Origin: a virus
Lineage: Duplodnaviria; Caudoviricetes
Length of the DNA stretch: 64,000 nucleotides
Reading direction: 5' to 3' (one strand)
Virus record (IMG/VR): IMGVR_UViG_3300027805_000006
Shown in pieces: positions 9,301-64,000 of this stretch. Made by a program: the position numbers and the translations under genes. The first letter of the stretch is position 1. Every line of letters starts with the position of its first letter. A model generated the notes under the pieces. That model was not told the origin of the DNA, searched no databases, and saw only the letters and a list, made by a program, of their open reading frames with translations.

Positions 9301-10834
9301 CATCAAGCAAATCAGCATTCAACCCAGTAACTAACTGTGTCTGAGCATTTGTTCCAAGCACAAATGGGGCAGCAGCTGCAGTAGGTGAGAATGAATGCTG
9401 AGCAGTGATAGTGCGCGGATTAGACGTGTGAACATATTGTGGATGGTCATCATCAGTTAATCCATCTAGTACGCCGTGGTCAACTATGTTAGGTGTTGAT
9501 ACCTGTATGATTGACAGCGTGCGATTGTCTTGAATGTCTCGAAGCGCTGCCTTTACACTATTTGAGAATGCATCTCTAACTTCAAAGATGAGACGATAGA
9601 GAGGTCTCATCTCCTTGAATGGCAAGTTTGATAGGTCAAGGGTATCCCACGTATTACCGCGCTGTGCCTGCTCGAGGCTGCTATCTTCTCTCTGACCAAG
9701 GATAAACATCACTGGTTCAGAAACATCATTTGTTGCAACTACCCAAGCTGCAACGTAGTTGTTATTCCCAGAATCAGGAGTTGTCCAGGTGCCACCAGTA
9801 TTCAAATTATATGTGGGGCGCGCGGTTCCAAACTTTAAAGGAAAGGAAGTTGCGGTATCTCTATACCATGCTCCACCAACGCCAGTGCGGTAGATAGCAG
9901 GAATTTTTGCTGGAATAGCAAGATCTTGTTCAAAATTTGCAGTAGGAGTGGCTGTTGCAACAACCTCGATCTTGATGTCCTCATCAAAGATAGTTCCACT
10001 GGTGACTGCGATTTGTGCATCAGCACCGGCGCTACCACCACCAACAAGTGTGAAGTCGGAAATTGTAAATCCACTGCCATATTGCGCACCACGGGTTATA
10101 TGCAAGTACTCGTGCGTCTGCCAGTCCATCGTGATGCCATGGCGTTCATCGCCAAACAGCGTTGCTTTTTGCTGCACAGAGTTCCAGTAGATAATTGCTA
10201 CAGGAACGTCATTTTCTAAGTTGAAAAAATTCGTACTGCTCTGCAAAGAGGCAGAGGAGTTATAGTAAATGAAGTAGAGATTAGTAGTATCTGGTATGAC
10301 TACACTCTCAGTAATTGTTTTTGTTATCTTTGCGCCCTTGTAATAGTACTCAAACTGAGTAGCAACGGGGGCAATTGAAAATGTGCGAGTTGCTGGAACA
10401 AATGAAATTTGACTTTCAGCGCGATCAATAAATCCTGTAGGTTCGCTGGTATCAAGTTGAACTGCAACTGTTTGGTCAGGTGCCCATTTAACTCCCTCAG
10501 GAGCAGTAGCATCTGCCATCAAAACATACCTGTCAGCACCTACAGCAAGCCTGACGTTGCCTGTTGCAGTTCTGACAATTAAATCACCTTTTGTTGTTGT
10601 GGGTGCAAGCCCATCAAATGTGACGTCAGACTGGCGCAGCACGAACTGCCACTCAGCATCTGCTGCGCCAGTCTTTACGTATAATGAACCATCGGTCCTG
10701 ATAAACAGGGAACCAATGGGAGCCGCTTCTCCTGGAGATGCAGAAGGATCTCCACTTCCCGTGAAAATACCCGTCTGCGTCTCGTCAAACGCCAGTCCGT
10801 CTTCAATTACGAATGCTGCGTTAATATCTGCCAC
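6398..10834 (-). CDS. Large tail fibre/virion protein (1478 aa) with an internal duplication
   Basis: Gly/Thr/Ser-rich; two copies of a TG...R..S.ISF..ATRTF.IAPV ... DHG.L.GL.DDDHPQYVHT module; GLNADLLDG motifs. Confidence 0.85.
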   Translation of the reverse strand: MADINAAFVIEDGLAFDETQTGIFTGSGDPSASPGEAAPIGSLFIRTDGSLYVKTGAADAEWQFVLRQSDVTFDGLAPTTTKGDLIVRTATGNVRLAVGADRYVLMADATAPEGVKWAPDQTVAVQLDTSEPTGFIDRAESQISFVPATRTFSIAPVATQFEYYYKGAKITKTITESVVIPDTTNLYFIYYNSSASLQSSTNFFNLENDVPVAIIYWNSVQQKATLFGDERHGITMDWQTHEYLHITRGAQYGSGFTISDFTLVGGGSAGADAQIAVTSGTIFDEDIKIEVVATATPTANFEQDLAIPAKIPAIYRTGVGGAWYRDTATSFPLKFGTARPTYNLNTGGTWTTPDSGNNNYVAAWVVATNDVSEPVMFILGQREDSSLEQAQRGNTWDTLDLSNLPFKEMRPLYRLIFEVRDAFSNSVKAALRDIQDNRTLSIIQVSTPNIVDHGVLDGLTDDDHPQYVHTSNPRTITAQHSFSPTAAAAPFVLGTNAQTQLVTGLNADLLDGQHAADFQPVDSDLTALANTTTTGIYTITGVGTSTTRSITGGSNKISVTNGDGVAGNPTIDIVEANINFPVTSVFGRTGAVTALEGDYDLTDLGDVSIVSPGPGQMLQYDGTQWINSAAPAGSGTVTSVAATAPAAGFTISGSPITSAGTLTFTLSDDLAALEALASGGIAARTGANTWQLRELVAPTGGISITNANGVAGNPTFSLTGDLAAVESLSGTGIAVRTAADTWATREILGTTDQISVTNADGISGNPTIAIASNPVLPGTESVKIPGGTSAERPGSPVEGDLRVNLDTDNLEMFDGTQWVFFKSSLIMGEEAEPTGHVNRTQSTISFDDATRTFTIAPVSGSYVYYVKGVRVVKTTSDSIQLPNTSGAYFIQFDAAGTLTQATVPDFQNFAYTSYVYWDAINSKSTVFAEERHGITMDGATHSYLHRAFGTQLLGGFDIGNFTETGTGNSNSDATFSLTNGIISDEDIRSTITHSATPTNFFEQVLTPAVSLKILRKSGTGGVWVSGNLTSFPVELVTNRAGFNDLNGGNWTVTEATEGNYVAAWVFATNDVRVPVVSFMGQRQDTTLDNAKNNNTVAALNFTGFPETEFKLLYRLIYQTSSTYSNDIKARLVNVDDYRSVKVSNVAFTSVSDHGELSGLGDDDHPQYVHTTENRTITAVHTFNPTSASAPFLLGTNAQGQLVTGLNADLLDGLSSSAFQPIDSTLTALAAYNTNGILTQTAPDTFVGRTITGTTSQITITNGNGVAGNPVISIADNPIFPGTAGMVLSTGSSAERPATPTNGTIRYNTTLGATEVYQNGGWYEIGLTSPGGSGYLAIYTGAIPGTSGNTAIPWDNTAPLDTEGTQIWSRTITPSSVASTFKFTVPFTVDVSTSNRIVICSLFRGTLNIGSAVFFATGGGRPTTLCLAVSDSPATTAPVTYSMRAGIGGGGGTWYINLTNAGNDLGGTLVSSYEITEIG

Positions 10835-61054: not shown

Positions 61055-61594
61055 TTATTTGGTGATCTTCCTAAGGGTGATGTATGTTGTCTCTACATCA
61101 CCATCCCATTGCGTAGAATGGGTTTCTACGTCCCAAAGAATTTCTTGCTTTCTTTGAGAGATTATAAATCTTTTCCACTCGTAGATATTTGTCTTGATTT
61201 TAACCTCAGCCTCACTTGATGAGGCTATAAGTGTCATATGAATTTCATCTACTAGATTTTTTTCTAGTGCTTCATCATAGACAGATGCTCCGCCCGCCAC
61301 CCAAATATGTTTCTGCTTTTTCCCAACATATTTTTCAAGAACGTCAATTGAGGAAACATACTTGACGCTTTTATGCAAAACCGGAGTTTTTGATAAGACG
61401 ATATTCTTGCGATTTGGAAGACCATTTGGTCGCTTAAGGCTCCTAAATGTAGTATTTCCCATAAGAACCGTGTCACCTATGGTGAGAGCCCTAAATCTCA
61501 TTAGATCATTTTTCAGGTTTGGATATGCTAACCTACCATCAGACCAACCAATGGTACCTACACCATCTACTGCTAGAATGAGTTTTACGGCCAT
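61055..61594 (-). CDS. folA: Dihydrofolate reductase
   Basis: LILAVD..GTIG..., DL.RF..LT.G..V.MG..TF.SL, LPNRKNIVLS, WVAGGASVY. Confidence 0.93.
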   Translation of the reverse strand: MAVKLILAVDGVGTIGWSDGRLAYPNLKNDLMRFRALTIGDTVLMGNTTFRSLKRPNGLPNRKNIVLSKTPVLHKSVKYVSSIDVLEKYVGKKQKHIWVAGGASVYDEALEKNLVDEIHMTLIASSSEAEVKIKTNIYEWKRFIISQRKQEILWDVETHSTQWDGDVETTYITLRKITK

Positions 61595-63210
61595 TAGAAC
61601 TTCTTGCCAAACTGGGAGATAATCTGTGGCGCAGCGCTGTCAAATCCAGCAATGTCCAACTGTAGAGGATCATTTGGGTCAGAGACCGAAACATCTGTCA
61701 CAGACGTGGCAATAATAACTTGACGTGTCTTGGGTGTGTCCATCTTGCGGCGATACTGCTTGAGCGCATCTGTTGCGTGGATTTGACCTGCCCACGTTTC
61801 ATTGTCGGTGATGCTCACGAAGGTATCCACCTTCATGCGATTTTCAAGCGCGTGGGTTGCTGGTAGAGAAAGATCGGTGCCGCCCCAGTTAAACTTCTGC
61901 ATCTTCTTCAACACGGCATCTAGGCGCATGTTGGGGCTAATGTGCAATTCTGACATTTTGGTGTTGAAGCCACCAATCCAGTAGTTAGAATGATTTTTTA
62001 CCACAGCAAGAGCCATCACAGCCGCTACTTCAGCCGCTGAAAGATTAGGAGAGCCATTTACTTTTACGCCAAACATTGAGGCAGAGCAATCAACGCCTAG
62101 GAGATAGGCTTCATCGCTCTTCTCACCCTGCTCAAAGGCCGCATAAAATGCATCGTCGAGCGCATCAACAATTCGCTGATTTGGCTTCCACTTTGCCTTG
62201 CTCTTTTCACCTTGACCGGCTGAATACTGCCTAATCGCTTGAAGGAGCGTCAGTGGATGCACGCGCTGGTCACGAAGCGCATGTGTATTTGACAGTTTGC
62301 TGATTATCAAGTTGGAGCCTTCAGACAGTGGCGTCAGCACCCCATGAGAGGTCAGAATACCCAACTTGCGAATTACGGCAGTGAGACCCATATTGACAAG
62401 TAGCGCTGAGAGCACGTCCTTATCTGTCATCCACTTAGTGGGCACCATTTCCCAAGTAATATCCTTGTTGTCTGAAATGATGCGAAGCACTTCCTCACGC
62501 GAAGAGGAGGTCTTCAGTGTCTCAAAGTCCTGAACGAGTTTTGGCAGCGCTTCGAGATTTGACTTCTTTCCAACTGCATATCCAAGTAAAGCCTCCTGCT
62601 CGGGAGATGTTGGCTTGGTATGTGAAAGACGTAGCACGTCTCGGTGTGCCCACCCGTTTCGTGACTTGTACTTTAGCAGTTGAACAGCAAGGCGTTGAAT
62701 GTCCTTGTCGTTATACCACTTAGCAATGCCCCTCTTTGCTGCAGCATTCCACTTGCCAAGAGCGTCAAGAATGGAGACAAACAGGAATAGCCAAGTGCCG
62801 GTGCGTGCAACCTTTGGGAGGGCATCATAGGCGGCTTCAATTGTCGCCGCGTTTCCATAAACCGCGGCTAGCGCGATGGCAACAACTGAGGTGTCGTTCT
62901 TGGGAGACCTGCCAGTAAGAGAATACTCCAGCGCATGGCGCACTACTCGCACACCATCTTCGGCAATGCACGCCTTGATGGTATCAAAGCCCTGCTTAGT
63001 AATATCCTGCTGCGATGCATAGTAGGATGATTGCTCGCTGCCAATCAGGAGGAAGCGGTCAAGGACGCTCCACTTATCCAACTTGAAGGCAAAACCCCCA
63101 GCGTTGTTAAGTTTCATTTCACTCTCGCGGCCAGGGATGGGCTCAGCCTGCGTGGGGAGAGTGCTTGAAGGAGATGATGAGCGGGCGTATTGCGAGTAGA
63201 TGCTTGACAT
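61594..63210 (-). CDS. rsr: TROVE-domain Ro60/Rsr-like RNA-binding protein with a vWA domain
   Basis: NNAGGFAF....W..LDRFL..GSE; GW.HRD.LRLSH; LLGVDCSASM; TDNETW; DIAGFDS; AAGGAG RBS. Confidence 0.93.
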   Translation of the reverse strand: MSSIYSQYARSSSPSSTLPTQAEPIPGRESEMKLNNAGGFAFKLDKWSVLDRFLLIGSEQSSYYASQQDITKQGFDTIKACIAEDGVRVVRHALEYSLTGRSPKNDTSVVAIALAAVYGNAATIEAAYDALPKVARTGTWLFLFVSILDALGKWNAAAKRGIAKWYNDKDIQRLAVQLLKYKSRNGWAHRDVLRLSHTKPTSPEQEALLGYAVGKKSNLEALPKLVQDFETLKTSSSREEVLRIISDNKDITWEMVPTKWMTDKDVLSALLVNMGLTAVIRKLGILTSHGVLTPLSEGSNLIISKLSNTHALRDQRVHPLTLLQAIRQYSAGQGEKSKAKWKPNQRIVDALDDAFYAAFEQGEKSDEAYLLGVDCSASMFGVKVNGSPNLSAAEVAAVMALAVVKNHSNYWIGGFNTKMSELHISPNMRLDAVLKKMQKFNWGGTDLSLPATHALENRMKVDTFVSITDNETWAGQIHATDALKQYRRKMDTPKTRQVIIATSVTDVSVSDPNDPLQLDIAGFDSAAPQIISQFGKKF

Positions 63211-63231
63211 ACAATCTCCTTTTTAAAACTA

Positions 63232-63690
63232 TCAAAACGACAAAAACTAAGTTGGAAGTTCAGTGAATAAAACAATAAGTCCTAATCACCTACACCCATT
63301 TATTTCGTAATAGGTAACTCACGGATATTACGTTATCCGACCGTCCATTTAATTCTCAGTTAAATGAAAAACCTATCCATTTTTTGGATAATGGCATCCT
63401 CTAATTTCCAGACTTATCTTTCAACTCGCGTGGATTGATTAGAATTTCTATCACCATCATCGTTATGATAACCAACTTTAACGGTCGTTTTGAAATAACT
63501 AGTAATCTGAAACAAAACAGGTATGGGTGTAAGGAATTAGCCAGTCCTTAACTTCTGCTTTCAGACTGCTATGCAGTCAGGCTATCCATTATATGATAAC
63601 CATATCCTCACGGTTTCAGATGTTTTCAACTTTGATGAAGCAATTCTACTATAGAAACAAACTACTGTAAAACTGTTTATTCAGGTTGAA
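63232..63690 (-). ncRNA. Candidate large structured non-coding RNA or leader upstream of Ro60/TROVE
   Basis: No ORF of 60 aa or more in ~480 nt. Terminal helix 63259-71/63676-90, long-range helices 63282-99/63523-40, 63505-13/63613-21 and 63338-44/63481-87, plus at least four local hairpins. G-U wobbles favour the minus strand. Confidence 0.6.
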
Positions 63691-63693
63691 GTT

Positions 63694-64000
63694 TTATTCT
63701 TTCTTCTTAGTTAATCTAGCAAGAAGGGCAGCCTTGAATTTTGGTGCCTGCACCTTGTAAATTCCGTCAAAGGCTCTCGTGTAGTTTGACACAAGCCTAT
63801 CAACCGGAGAAAGGTCTGCTCGCGTTTTTGCAGTTGCTGGCTCTGCTGACTTTAATCTTCCGGTGTATGGTGCCTTTCCCCCAGTGCTGTAGGAAGTGAT
63901 GCTTGTAATTCTTCCACTCAGTAAAACACGGCGCCATACTGCTTGACCCTGCTCATCTCCAAGTAGAGAGCCTTTCTTGCCCGTAAAGAGAAATGTGCCA
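63694..64000 (-). CDS. Hypothetical protein (partial, 5' end outside the window)
   Basis: Open frame of 101 codons ending ...KFKAALLARLTKKKE* at 63694; not in the ORF track. Confidence 0.7.
   Translation of the reverse strand, partial: GTFLFTGKKGSLLGDEQGQAVWRRVLLSGRITSITSYSTGGKAPYTGRLKSAEPATAKTRADLSPVDRLVSNYTRAFDGIYKVQAPKFKAALLARLTKKKE

What the first reader, a model, noticed from the sequence alone, without database searches (positions are those of the whole stretch)
63232..63690. About 460-nt highly structured, pseudoknotted RNA directly upstream of Ro60/TROVE: candidate new phage Y-like or ornate ncRNA
Seen: the ORF-free gap folds on the minus strand. Its two ends pair in a bulged helix (UUCA-acc-UGAAUAAA with UUUAUUCA-c-UGAA; 63676-90/63259-71). 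A ~16-bp helix (63523-40/63282-99, with G-U pairs that work only on the minus strand) crosses a perfect 9-bp helix (63613-21/63505-13). Also present: a 7-bp helix 63481-87/63338-44; hairpins at 63564-78, 63374-90, 63346-66 and 63322-39; direct repeats TGGTTATCATA (63464-74, 63592-602) and AATGGATAG (63373-81, 63582-90). Known: Ro60/Rsr binds Y RNAs through a terminal bulged stem, Y RNA genes usually lie next to rsr, and known Y RNAs are much shorter. Inference: a new, larger Ro-partner RNA or an array of processed units.
Basis: partly seen in the sequence, partly recalled or inferred. Interest (0 to 1): 0.8.

Follow-up and report, generated by a model that had tools for sequence, protein, structure and literature searches.

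The report
Tandem giant Y-like RNAs before phage Ro60
The gene-free stretch in front of a jumbo phage's Ro60 gene encodes a conserved folded RNA made of two Y-RNA-like units, one of them about three times the usual size, so it is probably a new, enlarged kind of Ro60 partner RNA.

Summary
The feature is real. Window 63232-63689 (minus strand) is a conserved non-coding RNA locus found directly 5' of rsr/Ro60 in 46 of 53 distinct phage loci whose Ro60 is at least 50% identical, mostly from 330-370 kb jumbo phages. It has a conserved sigma-70-type promoter and then two modules built on one frame: outer stem, C-CG, inner stem, UUAUC, apical domain, CCGnn, U-run, outer stem. Module 1 is Y-RNA-sized (63506-63620). 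Module 2 is about 260-290 nt (63232-63493) and carries an ornate apical domain.

All main helices covary strongly, including in sequence-anchored counts that were not fitted to any structure. A model built only from module 1 finds the same frame next to very distant phage Ro60 genes, always on the Ro60 strand. One of these is in a cultured Streptomyces phage, where the frame carries the published GNCGAANG Rsr motif. A freshwater metatranscriptome holds module 2 as a closed 268-nt assembly cycle.

No Rfam family matches. Ro60 binding is inferred, not shown. Its terminal helix and its 16-bp "pseudoknot" helix are not conserved.

The scan had already noted this same stretch from an overlapping window (e1-5321120).

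The parts
63682..63689 (-). Conserved TCAACCTG box upstream of the promoter; role unknown
   Evidence: Near-invariant in the family profile. It is kept in the window although the upstream ORF here is unrelated to that of the relatives. Its spacing to the -35 box varies by about 8-19 nt (my reading of the sequences).
63643..63671 (-). Sigma-70-type promoter: -35 TTTACA (63666-71), 17-nt spacer, -10 TAGAAT (63643-48). Transcription start inferred near 63636.
   Evidence: 10 of 12 consensus matches. TAnAAT and T(T/G)TACA sit at the same place in relatives.
63506..63620 (-). Module 1, a Y-RNA-sized unit. Outer stem P2 63613-20/63506-13; frame CCG..GGUUAUC 63595-63613; inner stem P3a 63600-04/63522-26; apical hairpins 63564-78 and 63531-49.
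   Evidence: P2 has 205/205 cells paired. P3a has 136/155 cells paired against 111.4 +/- 3.6 with permuted partners. Short versions align and fold without a structure-aware aligner, and 11 of 14 pairs are compensated. Coordinates.
63494..63505 (-). Linker between the modules. The RNA-library species begins inside it, at 63498.
63232..63493 (-). Module 2, the enlarged unit. Terminal stem 63484-93/63232-41; frame CCG..GGUUAUC 63467-84; inner stem P3 63472-79/63248-55.
   Evidence: Terminal stem has 249/304 cells paired against 131.9 +/- 9.5 permuted. P3 has 187/195 against 169.6 +/- 2.2, and the five sequences with A instead of G at pair 1 all have U instead of C on the partner strand. Both stems are also in the single-sequence minimum-energy fold.
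63372..63444 (-). Middle sub-domain of module 2. P5 63438-44/63399-405; P6; GAAA-capped hairpin P7 63412-29; helix PK2 63390-94/63377-81; then GAUAGG 63372-77.
   Evidence: Model R2 and its counts: 90% of cells paired, 69 double changes against 20.8 in shuffles, score 0.489 against 0.205, slid controls at most 0.11. The alignment is fitted to the model.
63287..63366 (-). 3' sub-domain of module 2: hairpins P9 63346-66, P10 63322-39, P11 63293-316, and the invariant GUAGG at 63289-93.
   Evidence: RNAalifold on a plain MAFFT alignment finds compensatory changes in 13 of 15 pairs. Model R1 counts: 93.8% paired, 138 double changes against 38.1, score 0.803 against 0.213.
63231..63498 (-). 268-nt species seen in a freshwater metatranscriptome: module 2 with about 5 nt 5' overhang and 1 nt 3' overhang
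   Evidence: A 298-nt contig, 100% identical, covers 63231-63498 and then repeats 63231-63260, which is k-1 = 30 letters. This is a closed cycle in the assembly graph.
61594..63221 (-). Ribosome-binding site AAGGAG (63216-21) and rsr/Ro60 gene (61594-63210, 538 aa)
   Evidence: Pfam TROVE at 7e-25 and vWA_Ro60 at 3e-48. Only 21 nt separate the terminal stem from the start codon.

Best explanation
The stretch is a non-coding RNA gene, or operon leader, that makes two Y-RNA-like RNAs for the phage's own Ro60.

A host-type sigma-70 promoter starts a transcript near 63636. It runs through module 1, about 115 nt here, and module 2, about 262 nt here, and with no terminator in between it probably continues into rsr.

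Each module is closed by a stem formed from its own 5' and 3' ends. Inside that stem lies a conserved asymmetric internal loop, with C-CG(A/G)A on the 5' side and a U-run before GUY on the 3' side. Then come an inner stem and an apical part that starts with UUAUC.

This stem-loop-stem frame is the likely Ro60 docking site. It is the counterpart of the GNCGAANG / GGUCCGA region of known Y RNAs. The modules are probably cut out of the precursor as stable RNAs.

The roughly 200-nt ornate apical domain of module 2 has at least eight helices and loops rich in YCGAA. It would be the effector side: it could hold further Ro60 copies, or tether Ro60 to a nuclease or another partner during infection.

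Shown here: conservation, covariation, the promoter motif, homology of the two modules, linkage of the frame to Ro60 genes, and presence in an RNA library. Inferred: Ro60 binding, processing and the tethering role.
For: (1) Family. Iterated nhmmer from the gap finds 65 hits (47 unique), all on the rsr strand just 5' of rsr. The RNA is present in 46 of 53 unique loci with Ro60 at least 50% identical, in 1 of 12 at 44-50%, and in 0 of 62 below that. The median distance to rsr is 70 nt. There is one copy per complete genome.
(2) Structure. Covariation supports P2, P3, P3a and the terminal stem in counts anchored on sequence motifs and not fitted to pairing. It also supports P5-P7, PK2 and P9-P11.
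(3) The two modules share one frame, as the logos show.
(4) Model R3, built only from short module 1 sequences, gives 79 matches in 100 mostly distant Ro60 loci, all on the Ro60 strand. Of those aligned, 95.5% of cells are paired, with 226 double changes against 70 in shuffles.
(5) R3 hits a 72-nt RNA 5' of the Ro-like gene of the cultured Streptomyces phage Enygma (39.7 bits). It carries GCCGAAUG at the frame position, which is the published GNCGAAN0-1G Rsr motif (PMC4201824).
(6) Precedent. In Thermus phage phiLo, two CGAA-bearing Yrl RNAs lie upstream of Ro60 and bind it in vitro (PMC12135203).
(7) CGAA is enriched: 148 observed against 98 +/- 9 expected, and 56 on the other strand. It sits in the P9, P10 and P11 loops.
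(8) The RNA-rsr pair stays together although the upstream gene in the window is unrelated to that of the relatives.
(9) An RNA library holds module 2 exactly, bounded within 1-5 nt of the covariation-defined terminal stem.
Against: No binding data exist. The window's own modules deviate from the motif: CCGUGAGG and CCGUUAAAG, with a single CGAA in the whole RNA. Seven of 53 close Ro60 loci lack a detectable RNA, and four complete relatives with Ro60 about 50-58% identical give no R1 match anywhere, so this Ro60 clade can exist without module 2. The compact frame also occurs away from rsr, inside phage tRNA arrays, so it is not exclusive to Ro60 loci. No tRNA-like domain was found. Expression evidence is one run of assembled contigs, which cannot prove RNA ends. 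E-values from the short-calibrated models are rough.
Confidence: 0.62

Rival explanations
1. The structure acts only in cis, as a long 5' leader of the rsr mRNA. It would control the mRNA's stability or translation, for example through feedback binding by Ro60 or a ligand- or temperature-sensing fold, and no separate RNA would be made.
For: No terminator-like site and no second promoter lie between the RNA and rsr. The terminal stem ends 10 nt before the ribosome-binding site. The median gap to rsr in relatives is 70 nt.
Against: In L018 a GIY-YIG homing endonuclease gene sits between the RNA and rsr, a separation of 768 nt, and in five other loci the gap is about 300-515 nt, yet the RNA is conserved. 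The same frame is also found 3' of rsr in about a dozen loci and in tRNA arrays. The RNA-library cycle closes on module 2 alone. Known Y RNAs are also processed from rsr operon transcripts, so co-transcription does not argue against a trans-acting RNA.
Confidence: 0.15
2. The RNA is a stable structured phage RNA whose function does not involve Ro60. It might act in tRNA-cluster transcript processing, or as a decoy for host nucleases or tRNA-targeting defences. It would lie beside rsr only because RNA-metabolism genes cluster.
For: Compact R3 modules sit 3-10 nt from tRNA genes on the tRNA strand, in tRNA arrays roughly 40-60 kb from rsr, in two complete genomes. tRNA genes also flank many distant Ro60 genes. 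Some Ro60-bearing relatives lack module 2.
Against: There are 79 matches in 644 kb of Ro60 flanks, all on the Ro60 strand, against about 3 matches per 360 kb genome-wide. The frame carries the published Rsr recognition motif in phage Enygma. The large two-module RNA was found only at rsr.
Confidence: 0.15
3. The stretch is not an RNA gene. It would be a DNA-level element such as an origin or protein-binding array, or it would encode small peptides.
For: Both strands fold better than shuffles. Short direct repeats are present.
Against: Compensatory base changes include G-U pairs that work on one strand only, and all family hits share one orientation. There is no conserved ORF: the longest on the minus strand is 33 aa. 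ORFs of 70-100 aa inside the gap turn up only in some relatives. The stretch is present in an RNA library.
Confidence: 0.03

Closest known systems
Bacterial and phage Y RNAs YrlA and YrlB (Chen et al. 2014, PMC4201824)
   Same: They are encoded beside rsr on the same strand. A stem is formed by the 5' and 3' ends. A conserved purine-rich CG(A/G)A motif lies on the 5' strand of that stem; in phage Enygma the frame reads GCCGAAUG, which is GNCGAAN0-1G. Often there are two RNAs in tandem. Module 1 falls in the 80-130 nt size class.
   Different: No tRNA-like T/D domain was detected. Module 2 is 240-360 nt with its own multi-helix apical domain. The apical part starts with an invariant GGUUAUC box. 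No hit to any Rfam model. The window's own copies lack an exact GNCGAA.
Yrl1 and Yrl2 of Thermus phage phiLo (PMC12135203)
   Same: These are two Y-like RNAs in the non-coding region directly upstream of a phage Ro60 gene. They carry CGAA motifs in a stem/bulge/stem layout. They bind the phage Ro60 and form higher-order complexes, including with host PNPase in vitro.
   Different: The phiLo RNAs were defined from one genome by motif and single-sequence folding. The present family is defined by covariation over about 47 sequences. It has a shared promoter, a specific frame, and a module about three times larger. Sequence relatedness to Yrl1 and Yrl2 was not tested here.
Metazoan Y RNAs
   Same: A terminal 5'/3' stem contains a conserved distorted helix. 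The paper quotes GGUCCGA pairing with 3' residues as a bulged helix. The phage frame reads RAC-C-GA on the 5' strand opposite UUU-GUY on the 3' strand. An apical loop region is thought to bind effectors.
   Different: No detectable homology: Rfam Y_RNA does not match even at E up to 10. Different size, different polymerase and different genomic context. The helix resemblance is a reading of motifs, not a test.
Ornate large RNAs of phages and bacteria: ROOL and GOLLD (10.1101/2024.12.08.627333)
   Same: They are large, multi-helix, phage-associated non-coding RNAs that often lie near tRNA genes. Function is unknown.
   Different: No Rfam match to ROOL or GOLLD. The present RNA is modular, Y-like, and tied to Ro60.

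Membership tests
Y RNA in the broad sense (Ro60 partner RNA) | Binds Ro60/Rsr | not testable with these tools
   The complex predictor takes proteins and small ligands only. This needs RIP, CLIP or EMSA.
Y RNA in the broad sense (Ro60 partner RNA) | Encoded next to the Ro60 gene | tested here: met
   Directly 5' of rsr on the same strand in 46 of 53 close loci, with a median gap of 70 nt. The module 1 frame is found beside distant Ro60 genes, 79 of 79 matches on the Ro60 strand.
Y RNA in the broad sense (Ro60 partner RNA) | Long stem formed by the 5' and 3' ends, interrupted by a conserved loop or bulge | tested here: met
   P2 plus P3a in module 1, and the terminal stem plus P3 in module 2. 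All covary. The internal-loop letters are conserved.
Y RNA in the broad sense (Ro60 partner RNA) | Size 80-130 nt | tested here: inconclusive
   Module 1 has a median of 87.5 nt (32-139), which fits. Module 2 has a median of 287.5 nt (241-357), which does not.
Bacterial YrlA | GNCGAAN0-1G motif near the 5' end | tested here: inconclusive
   The motif is exact in the Enygma match. In the frame of module 1, (A/G)ACCGA occurs in 25 of 36 sequences and CCGAA in 9 of 36. The window has CCGUGAGG and CCGUUAAAG.
Bacterial YrlA | tRNA-like domain with T and D arms | tested here: not met
   No tRNA or tRNA-like match in the window by ARAGORN or by Rfam at E up to 10, and none in six relatives. It is therefore not filed as YrlA.
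Rfam families, including Y_RNA, ROOL, GOLLD, tRNA and group I introns | Score at or above the family's gathering threshold | tested here: not met
   No match in the window. Only chance-level hits at E up to 10. Only tRNA genes in 15 loci. Nothing in six relatives.

The most novel reading that the evidence does not exclude
Module 2 is cut out of the precursor and its paired ends are joined, giving a covalently closed 268-nt circular Y-like RNA. The ligase could be a phage Rnl2-type RNA ligase or a host one. The ornate domain would then serve as a nuclease-resistant, multivalent platform for Ro60 in jumbo-phage infection.
Probability: 0.15. Interest if true: 0.85.

Novelty: new variant of a known kind. 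Interest (0 to 1): 0.66.

Why it matters
Y RNAs are thought to set what Ro60 does by tethering it to effectors. All characterised ones are about 80-130 nt, and the bacterial ones mimic tRNA.

This work points to a covariation-supported family, found in dozens of jumbo phages, in which a Y-like frame carries a roughly 200-nt structured domain of unknown partner. It also yields a compact Y-like frame that marks Ro60 loci across very divergent phages and recurs in phage tRNA arrays.

Together these give concrete, testable RNAs for asking what phage Ro60 proteins do during infection, which is still open. They also offer a well-defined large RNA-protein target for structural work.

Tried and rejected
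- Rfam at gathering and permissive thresholds on the window and relatives gave nothing but tRNAs elsewhere. The weak U3 and drum hits are at chance level.
- A DNA pattern scan of viral contigs, GGTTATC..AGTTGAAAG, returned 114 or more mostly chance loci. Only two known contigs were true by model R1, so it says nothing about copies without rsr.
- MAFFT plus RNAalifold on the whole element or on diverse sets mostly failed through misalignment. Anchored counts and small models were used instead.
- A hairpin AACCG/CGGUU inside box A1 has no compensation where GG becomes GA. It was dropped in favour of P3a.
- Pairing of UC in UUAUC with GA in the 3' GAA is broken in all 7 sequences with UUACC or UUAAC.
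- Pairing of UUAUC in box A2 with GAUAG holds in close relatives, with one compensated case (L055), but fails in many distant ones. It is left as tentative.
- Pseudoknot stem PK1 has a mean best score of 3.70 against 3.37 +/- 0.16 in shuffled loops, which is only weak support.
- The upstream ORFs have no Pfam family.
- RtcB is absent from five records.
- Run X1 has no contigs on module 1 or on the upstream ORF. Absence of cover is not evidence.
- The marginal R1 hit in L011 (E 0.0036) was not followed.
- R3 does not detect module 1 in the window or in L139, where the apical insert is long.

Full report
**Context.** The window is part of a 78-kb IMG/VR contig, estimated to be 19% of a jumbo phage genome. 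ORF 61594-63210 on the minus strand is a Ro60/Rsr protein, with Pfam TROVE at 7e-25 and vWA_Ro60 at 3e-48. The next ORF upstream on the same strand ends at 63694. That leaves a 483-nt gap whose longest minus-strand ORF is 33 aa. The gap folds better than dinucleotide shuffles on both strands, with z -3.65 on the minus strand and -4.94 on the plus strand. Folding energy alone therefore does not pick a strand. No Rfam family reaches threshold, permissive hits are at chance level, and there is no tRNA.

**A conserved family tied to rsr.** Ro60 relatives at 55-67% identity are common in metagenomes, many on contigs of 100-370 kb. I fetched 160 Ro60 loci from viral and metagenome contigs.
- nhmmer started from the gap and iterated finds 65 hits, 47 of them unique. 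All lie on the Ro60 strand immediately 5' of rsr.
- Mean pairwise identity among 30 full-length members is 48%, and GC ranges from 32% to 53%.
- The RNA is detected in 46 of 53 unique loci with Ro60 at least 50% identical, in 1 of 12 at 44-50%, and in 0 of 62 below that. The median distance to rsr is 70 nt.
- Complete 330-370 kb genomes carry one copy, at rsr. Four complete relatives with Ro60 near 50-58% identity show no match to the 3' sub-domain model.
- The window's upstream ORF is unrelated to the roughly 190-aa membrane protein upstream in relatives, yet the RNA-rsr pair is intact.
- In L018 a GIY-YIG homing endonuclease gene lies between the RNA and rsr, a separation of 768 nt. In five other loci the separation is about 300-515 nt.

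**Promoter and ends.** A sigma-70-type promoter is present: -35 TTTACA at 63666-71, a 17-nt spacer, and -10 TAGAAT at 63643-48, matching 10 of 12 consensus positions. Relatives have TAnAAT and T(T/G)TACA at the same place. No terminator-like site was found. The conserved UUUUGU near the 3' end is not a terminator tail. Its GU(C/U) starts the 3' strand of a terminal stem, as described below. A near-invariant TCAACCTG box (63682-89) lies upstream of the -35 box at variable spacing and remains unexplained.

**Architecture: two homologous modules.** Both modules follow one frame. An outer stem ends in C. Then comes CG, often with a small hairpin, then an inner stem ending in GG, then UUAUC and an apical domain. 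The 3' side mirrors this: the inner stem's CCGnn, about six letters, a U-run, and the outer stem starting GUY (logos; consensus).

To avoid fitting the data, I extracted strands without gaps, positioned only by the invariant sequence anchors.
- Module 1 outer stem P2: 205 of 205 cells paired in 41 sequences. One position shows AU 32 and GC 9, and the next positions show up to six pair types.
- Module 1 inner stem P3a: 136 of 155 cells paired, against 111.4 +/- 3.6 when partners are permuted among sequences.
- Module 2 terminal stem, 10 bp, 63484-93/63232-41: 249 of 304 cells paired against 131.9 +/- 9.5 (maximum 164), with four to six pair types at most positions.
- Module 2 inner stem P3, 63472-79/63248-55, with strands 220-300 nt apart: 187 of 195 against 169.6 +/- 2.2. 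The five sequences with A instead of G at pair 1 all have U instead of C on the partner strand.

Median sizes are 87.5 nt for module 1, 287.5 nt for module 2, about 31 nt for the leader and 33 nt for the linker.

**The apical domain of module 2.**
- A plain MAFFT alignment of 18 sequences folds into three hairpins, P9, P10 and P11, with compensatory changes in 13 of 15 pairs.
- Model R1 built from that alignment aligns 29 distinct sequences: 93.8% of cells paired, 138 double changes against 38.1 in shuffles, covariation score 0.803 against 0.213, slid controls 0.03-0.12.
- Model R2 covers the middle part, P5, P6, the GAAA-capped P7, and helix PK2: 90% paired, 69 double changes against 20.8, score 0.489 against 0.205.
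- Both of these alignments are fitted to their models, so they lean towards the structure.
- A second stem that would make PK2 an H-type pseudoknot is seen in many sequences, but it beats shuffled loops only weakly, 3.70 against 3.37 +/- 0.16.
- The loops of P9, P10 and P11 and the 3' tail carry YCGAA-type motifs. CGAA is enriched, 148 observed against 98 +/- 9 expected and 56 on the opposite strand. The sequences are related, so this mostly reflects conserved positions.

**Link to Ro60 and to known Y RNAs.** Short versions of module 1 align well without structural help and fold into an outer stem of 5 bp and an inner stem of 9 bp, with 11 of 14 pairs compensated. Model R3, built only from these, was run on 100 loci. 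Most hold Ro60 genes at most about 50% identical to the window's and had shown no match to the large RNA.
- It gave 79 matches at E up to 0.1, all on the Ro60 strand. They are often two to four in tandem, mostly within 1 kb upstream, and about a dozen lie just downstream of rsr.
- The 52 distinct matches at E up to 0.001 are 95.5% paired, with 226 double changes against 70.4 in shuffles and a score of 0.810 against 0.221.
- In the cultured Streptomyces phage Enygma, R3 hits a 72-nt RNA (39.7 bits) 5' of the annotated Ro-like gene and on its strand. At the frame position it reads GCCGAAUG.
- That is the GNCGAAN0-1G motif that Chen et al. place near the 5' end of bacterial Y RNAs. They relate it to the GGUCCGA contacted by Xenopus Ro60 (PMC4201824).
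- In Thermus phage phiLo, two CGAA-bearing Yrl RNAs lie upstream of Ro60 and bind it in vitro (PMC12135203).

The frame is thus best read as the Ro60-recognition part of a Y-like RNA. Three caveats apply. The window's own frames read CCGUGAGG and CCGUUAAAG. No tRNA-like domain is present. The compact frame also occurs in tRNA arrays away from rsr.

**Expression.** One freshwater metatranscriptome (X1) holds three contigs 100% identical to the window.
- Two are in rsr, at word depths 4.2 and 3.4.
- The third is a 298-nt record at depth 18.4. It covers 63231-63498 and then repeats 63231-63260.
- The 30-letter terminal repeat equals k-1 for a 31-mer assembly graph, which I take to be Logan's word size from my own knowledge, not from a tool result. 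The graph therefore closed on itself, and some reads must join 63498 to 63231.
- In RNA sense, this species starts 5 nt before the terminal stem of module 2 and ends 1 nt after it. That agrees with a boundary defined independently by covariation.
- It may be a circular RNA, a head-to-tail reverse-transcription artefact on an abundant linear 268-nt RNA, or a tandem duplication in a variant genome.
- Contigs cannot prove ends or levels, and this is one run only.
- Complete relatives encode no RtcB but two or three Rnl2-type RNA ligases. That makes joining possible but is not evidence for it.

- Confirmed: the ORF-free gap, minus-strand folding, the 9-bp helix (P2), hairpins 63346-66 and 63322-39 (P9 and P10), and both direct repeats, which are the A1/A2 boxes and the GGAUAG motifs.
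- Not supported: the 5' arm of the terminal helix 63676-90/63259-71 is upstream of the promoter.
- Not supported: the 16-bp helix is striking in the window but absent in relatives.
- Not supported: the 7-bp helix competes with the covarying terminal stem.
- Not supported: hairpin 63374-90 is in a different register from the conserved helix.

**Verdict.** This is a real, conserved, structured RNA locus. It is best explained as a tandem pair of Y-like RNAs for the phage Ro60, one of them greatly enlarged. That makes it a new variant of a known kind. Ro60 binding, processing, any circular form, and the partner of the ornate domain all remain to be tested.

Noticed in passing
L301 (G002:C1) 1390-1460, 1557-1637, 1991-2059; L302 (G003:C1) about 1216-1328 and 9816-9880: Compact Y-like modules (R3 matches) lie inside the phage tRNA gene arrays, on the tRNA strand. 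Those in G002 and the second one in G003 sit only 3-10 nt from tRNA genes. tRNA processing could release them, or they may act together with tRNAs.
   Followed up: partly
window 63231-63498: A metatranscriptome contig closes on itself: its last 30 letters repeat its first 30. This implies reads that join 63498 to 63231. It could be a circular RNA, a template-switching artefact or a tandem duplication.
   Followed up: partly
window 63682-63689: A near-invariant TCAACCTG box lies upstream of the RNA promoter at variable spacing. It is kept even though the upstream gene differs in the window, and a second UCAACC copy sits in the inter-module linker of close relatives. Its function is unknown.
   Followed up: partly
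window 63523-63540 with 63282-63299: A 17-of-18-bp complementarity unique to this phage (z -4.3) would compete with the conserved hairpin P11. It may be an alternative fold or chance.
   Followed up: yes
L018:2301-3044: A GIY-YIG/NUMOD3 homing endonuclease gene is inserted between the RNA and rsr. An HNH endonuclease ORF lies further upstream in L016 (1239-1826).
   Followed up: partly
G001-G004, for example G002:C1:311404-311859: Complete relatives have no RtcB but two or three Rnl2-type RNA ligase genes, one of them 14-21 kb from the rsr locus.
   Followed up: no
L001:1984-2607 (window 63694 onward, minus strand): The 207-aa ORF upstream of the RNA in this phage has no Pfam family. It is not homologous to the roughly 190-aa N-terminally hydrophobic protein that occupies this position in relatives.
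   Followed up: partly
L019, L107, L050, L053, L054: Some Ro60 genes of the same clade have only 120-310 nt of upstream gap, with at most one GGTTATC box. These look like reduced or lost versions of the RNA.
   Followed up: partly
L006:399-528: A 130-nt Rfam tRNA match lies just upstream of two R3 modules (528-599 and 602-667) and of a distant rsr gene. It may be a tRNA-like Y RNA arrangement.
   Followed up: no
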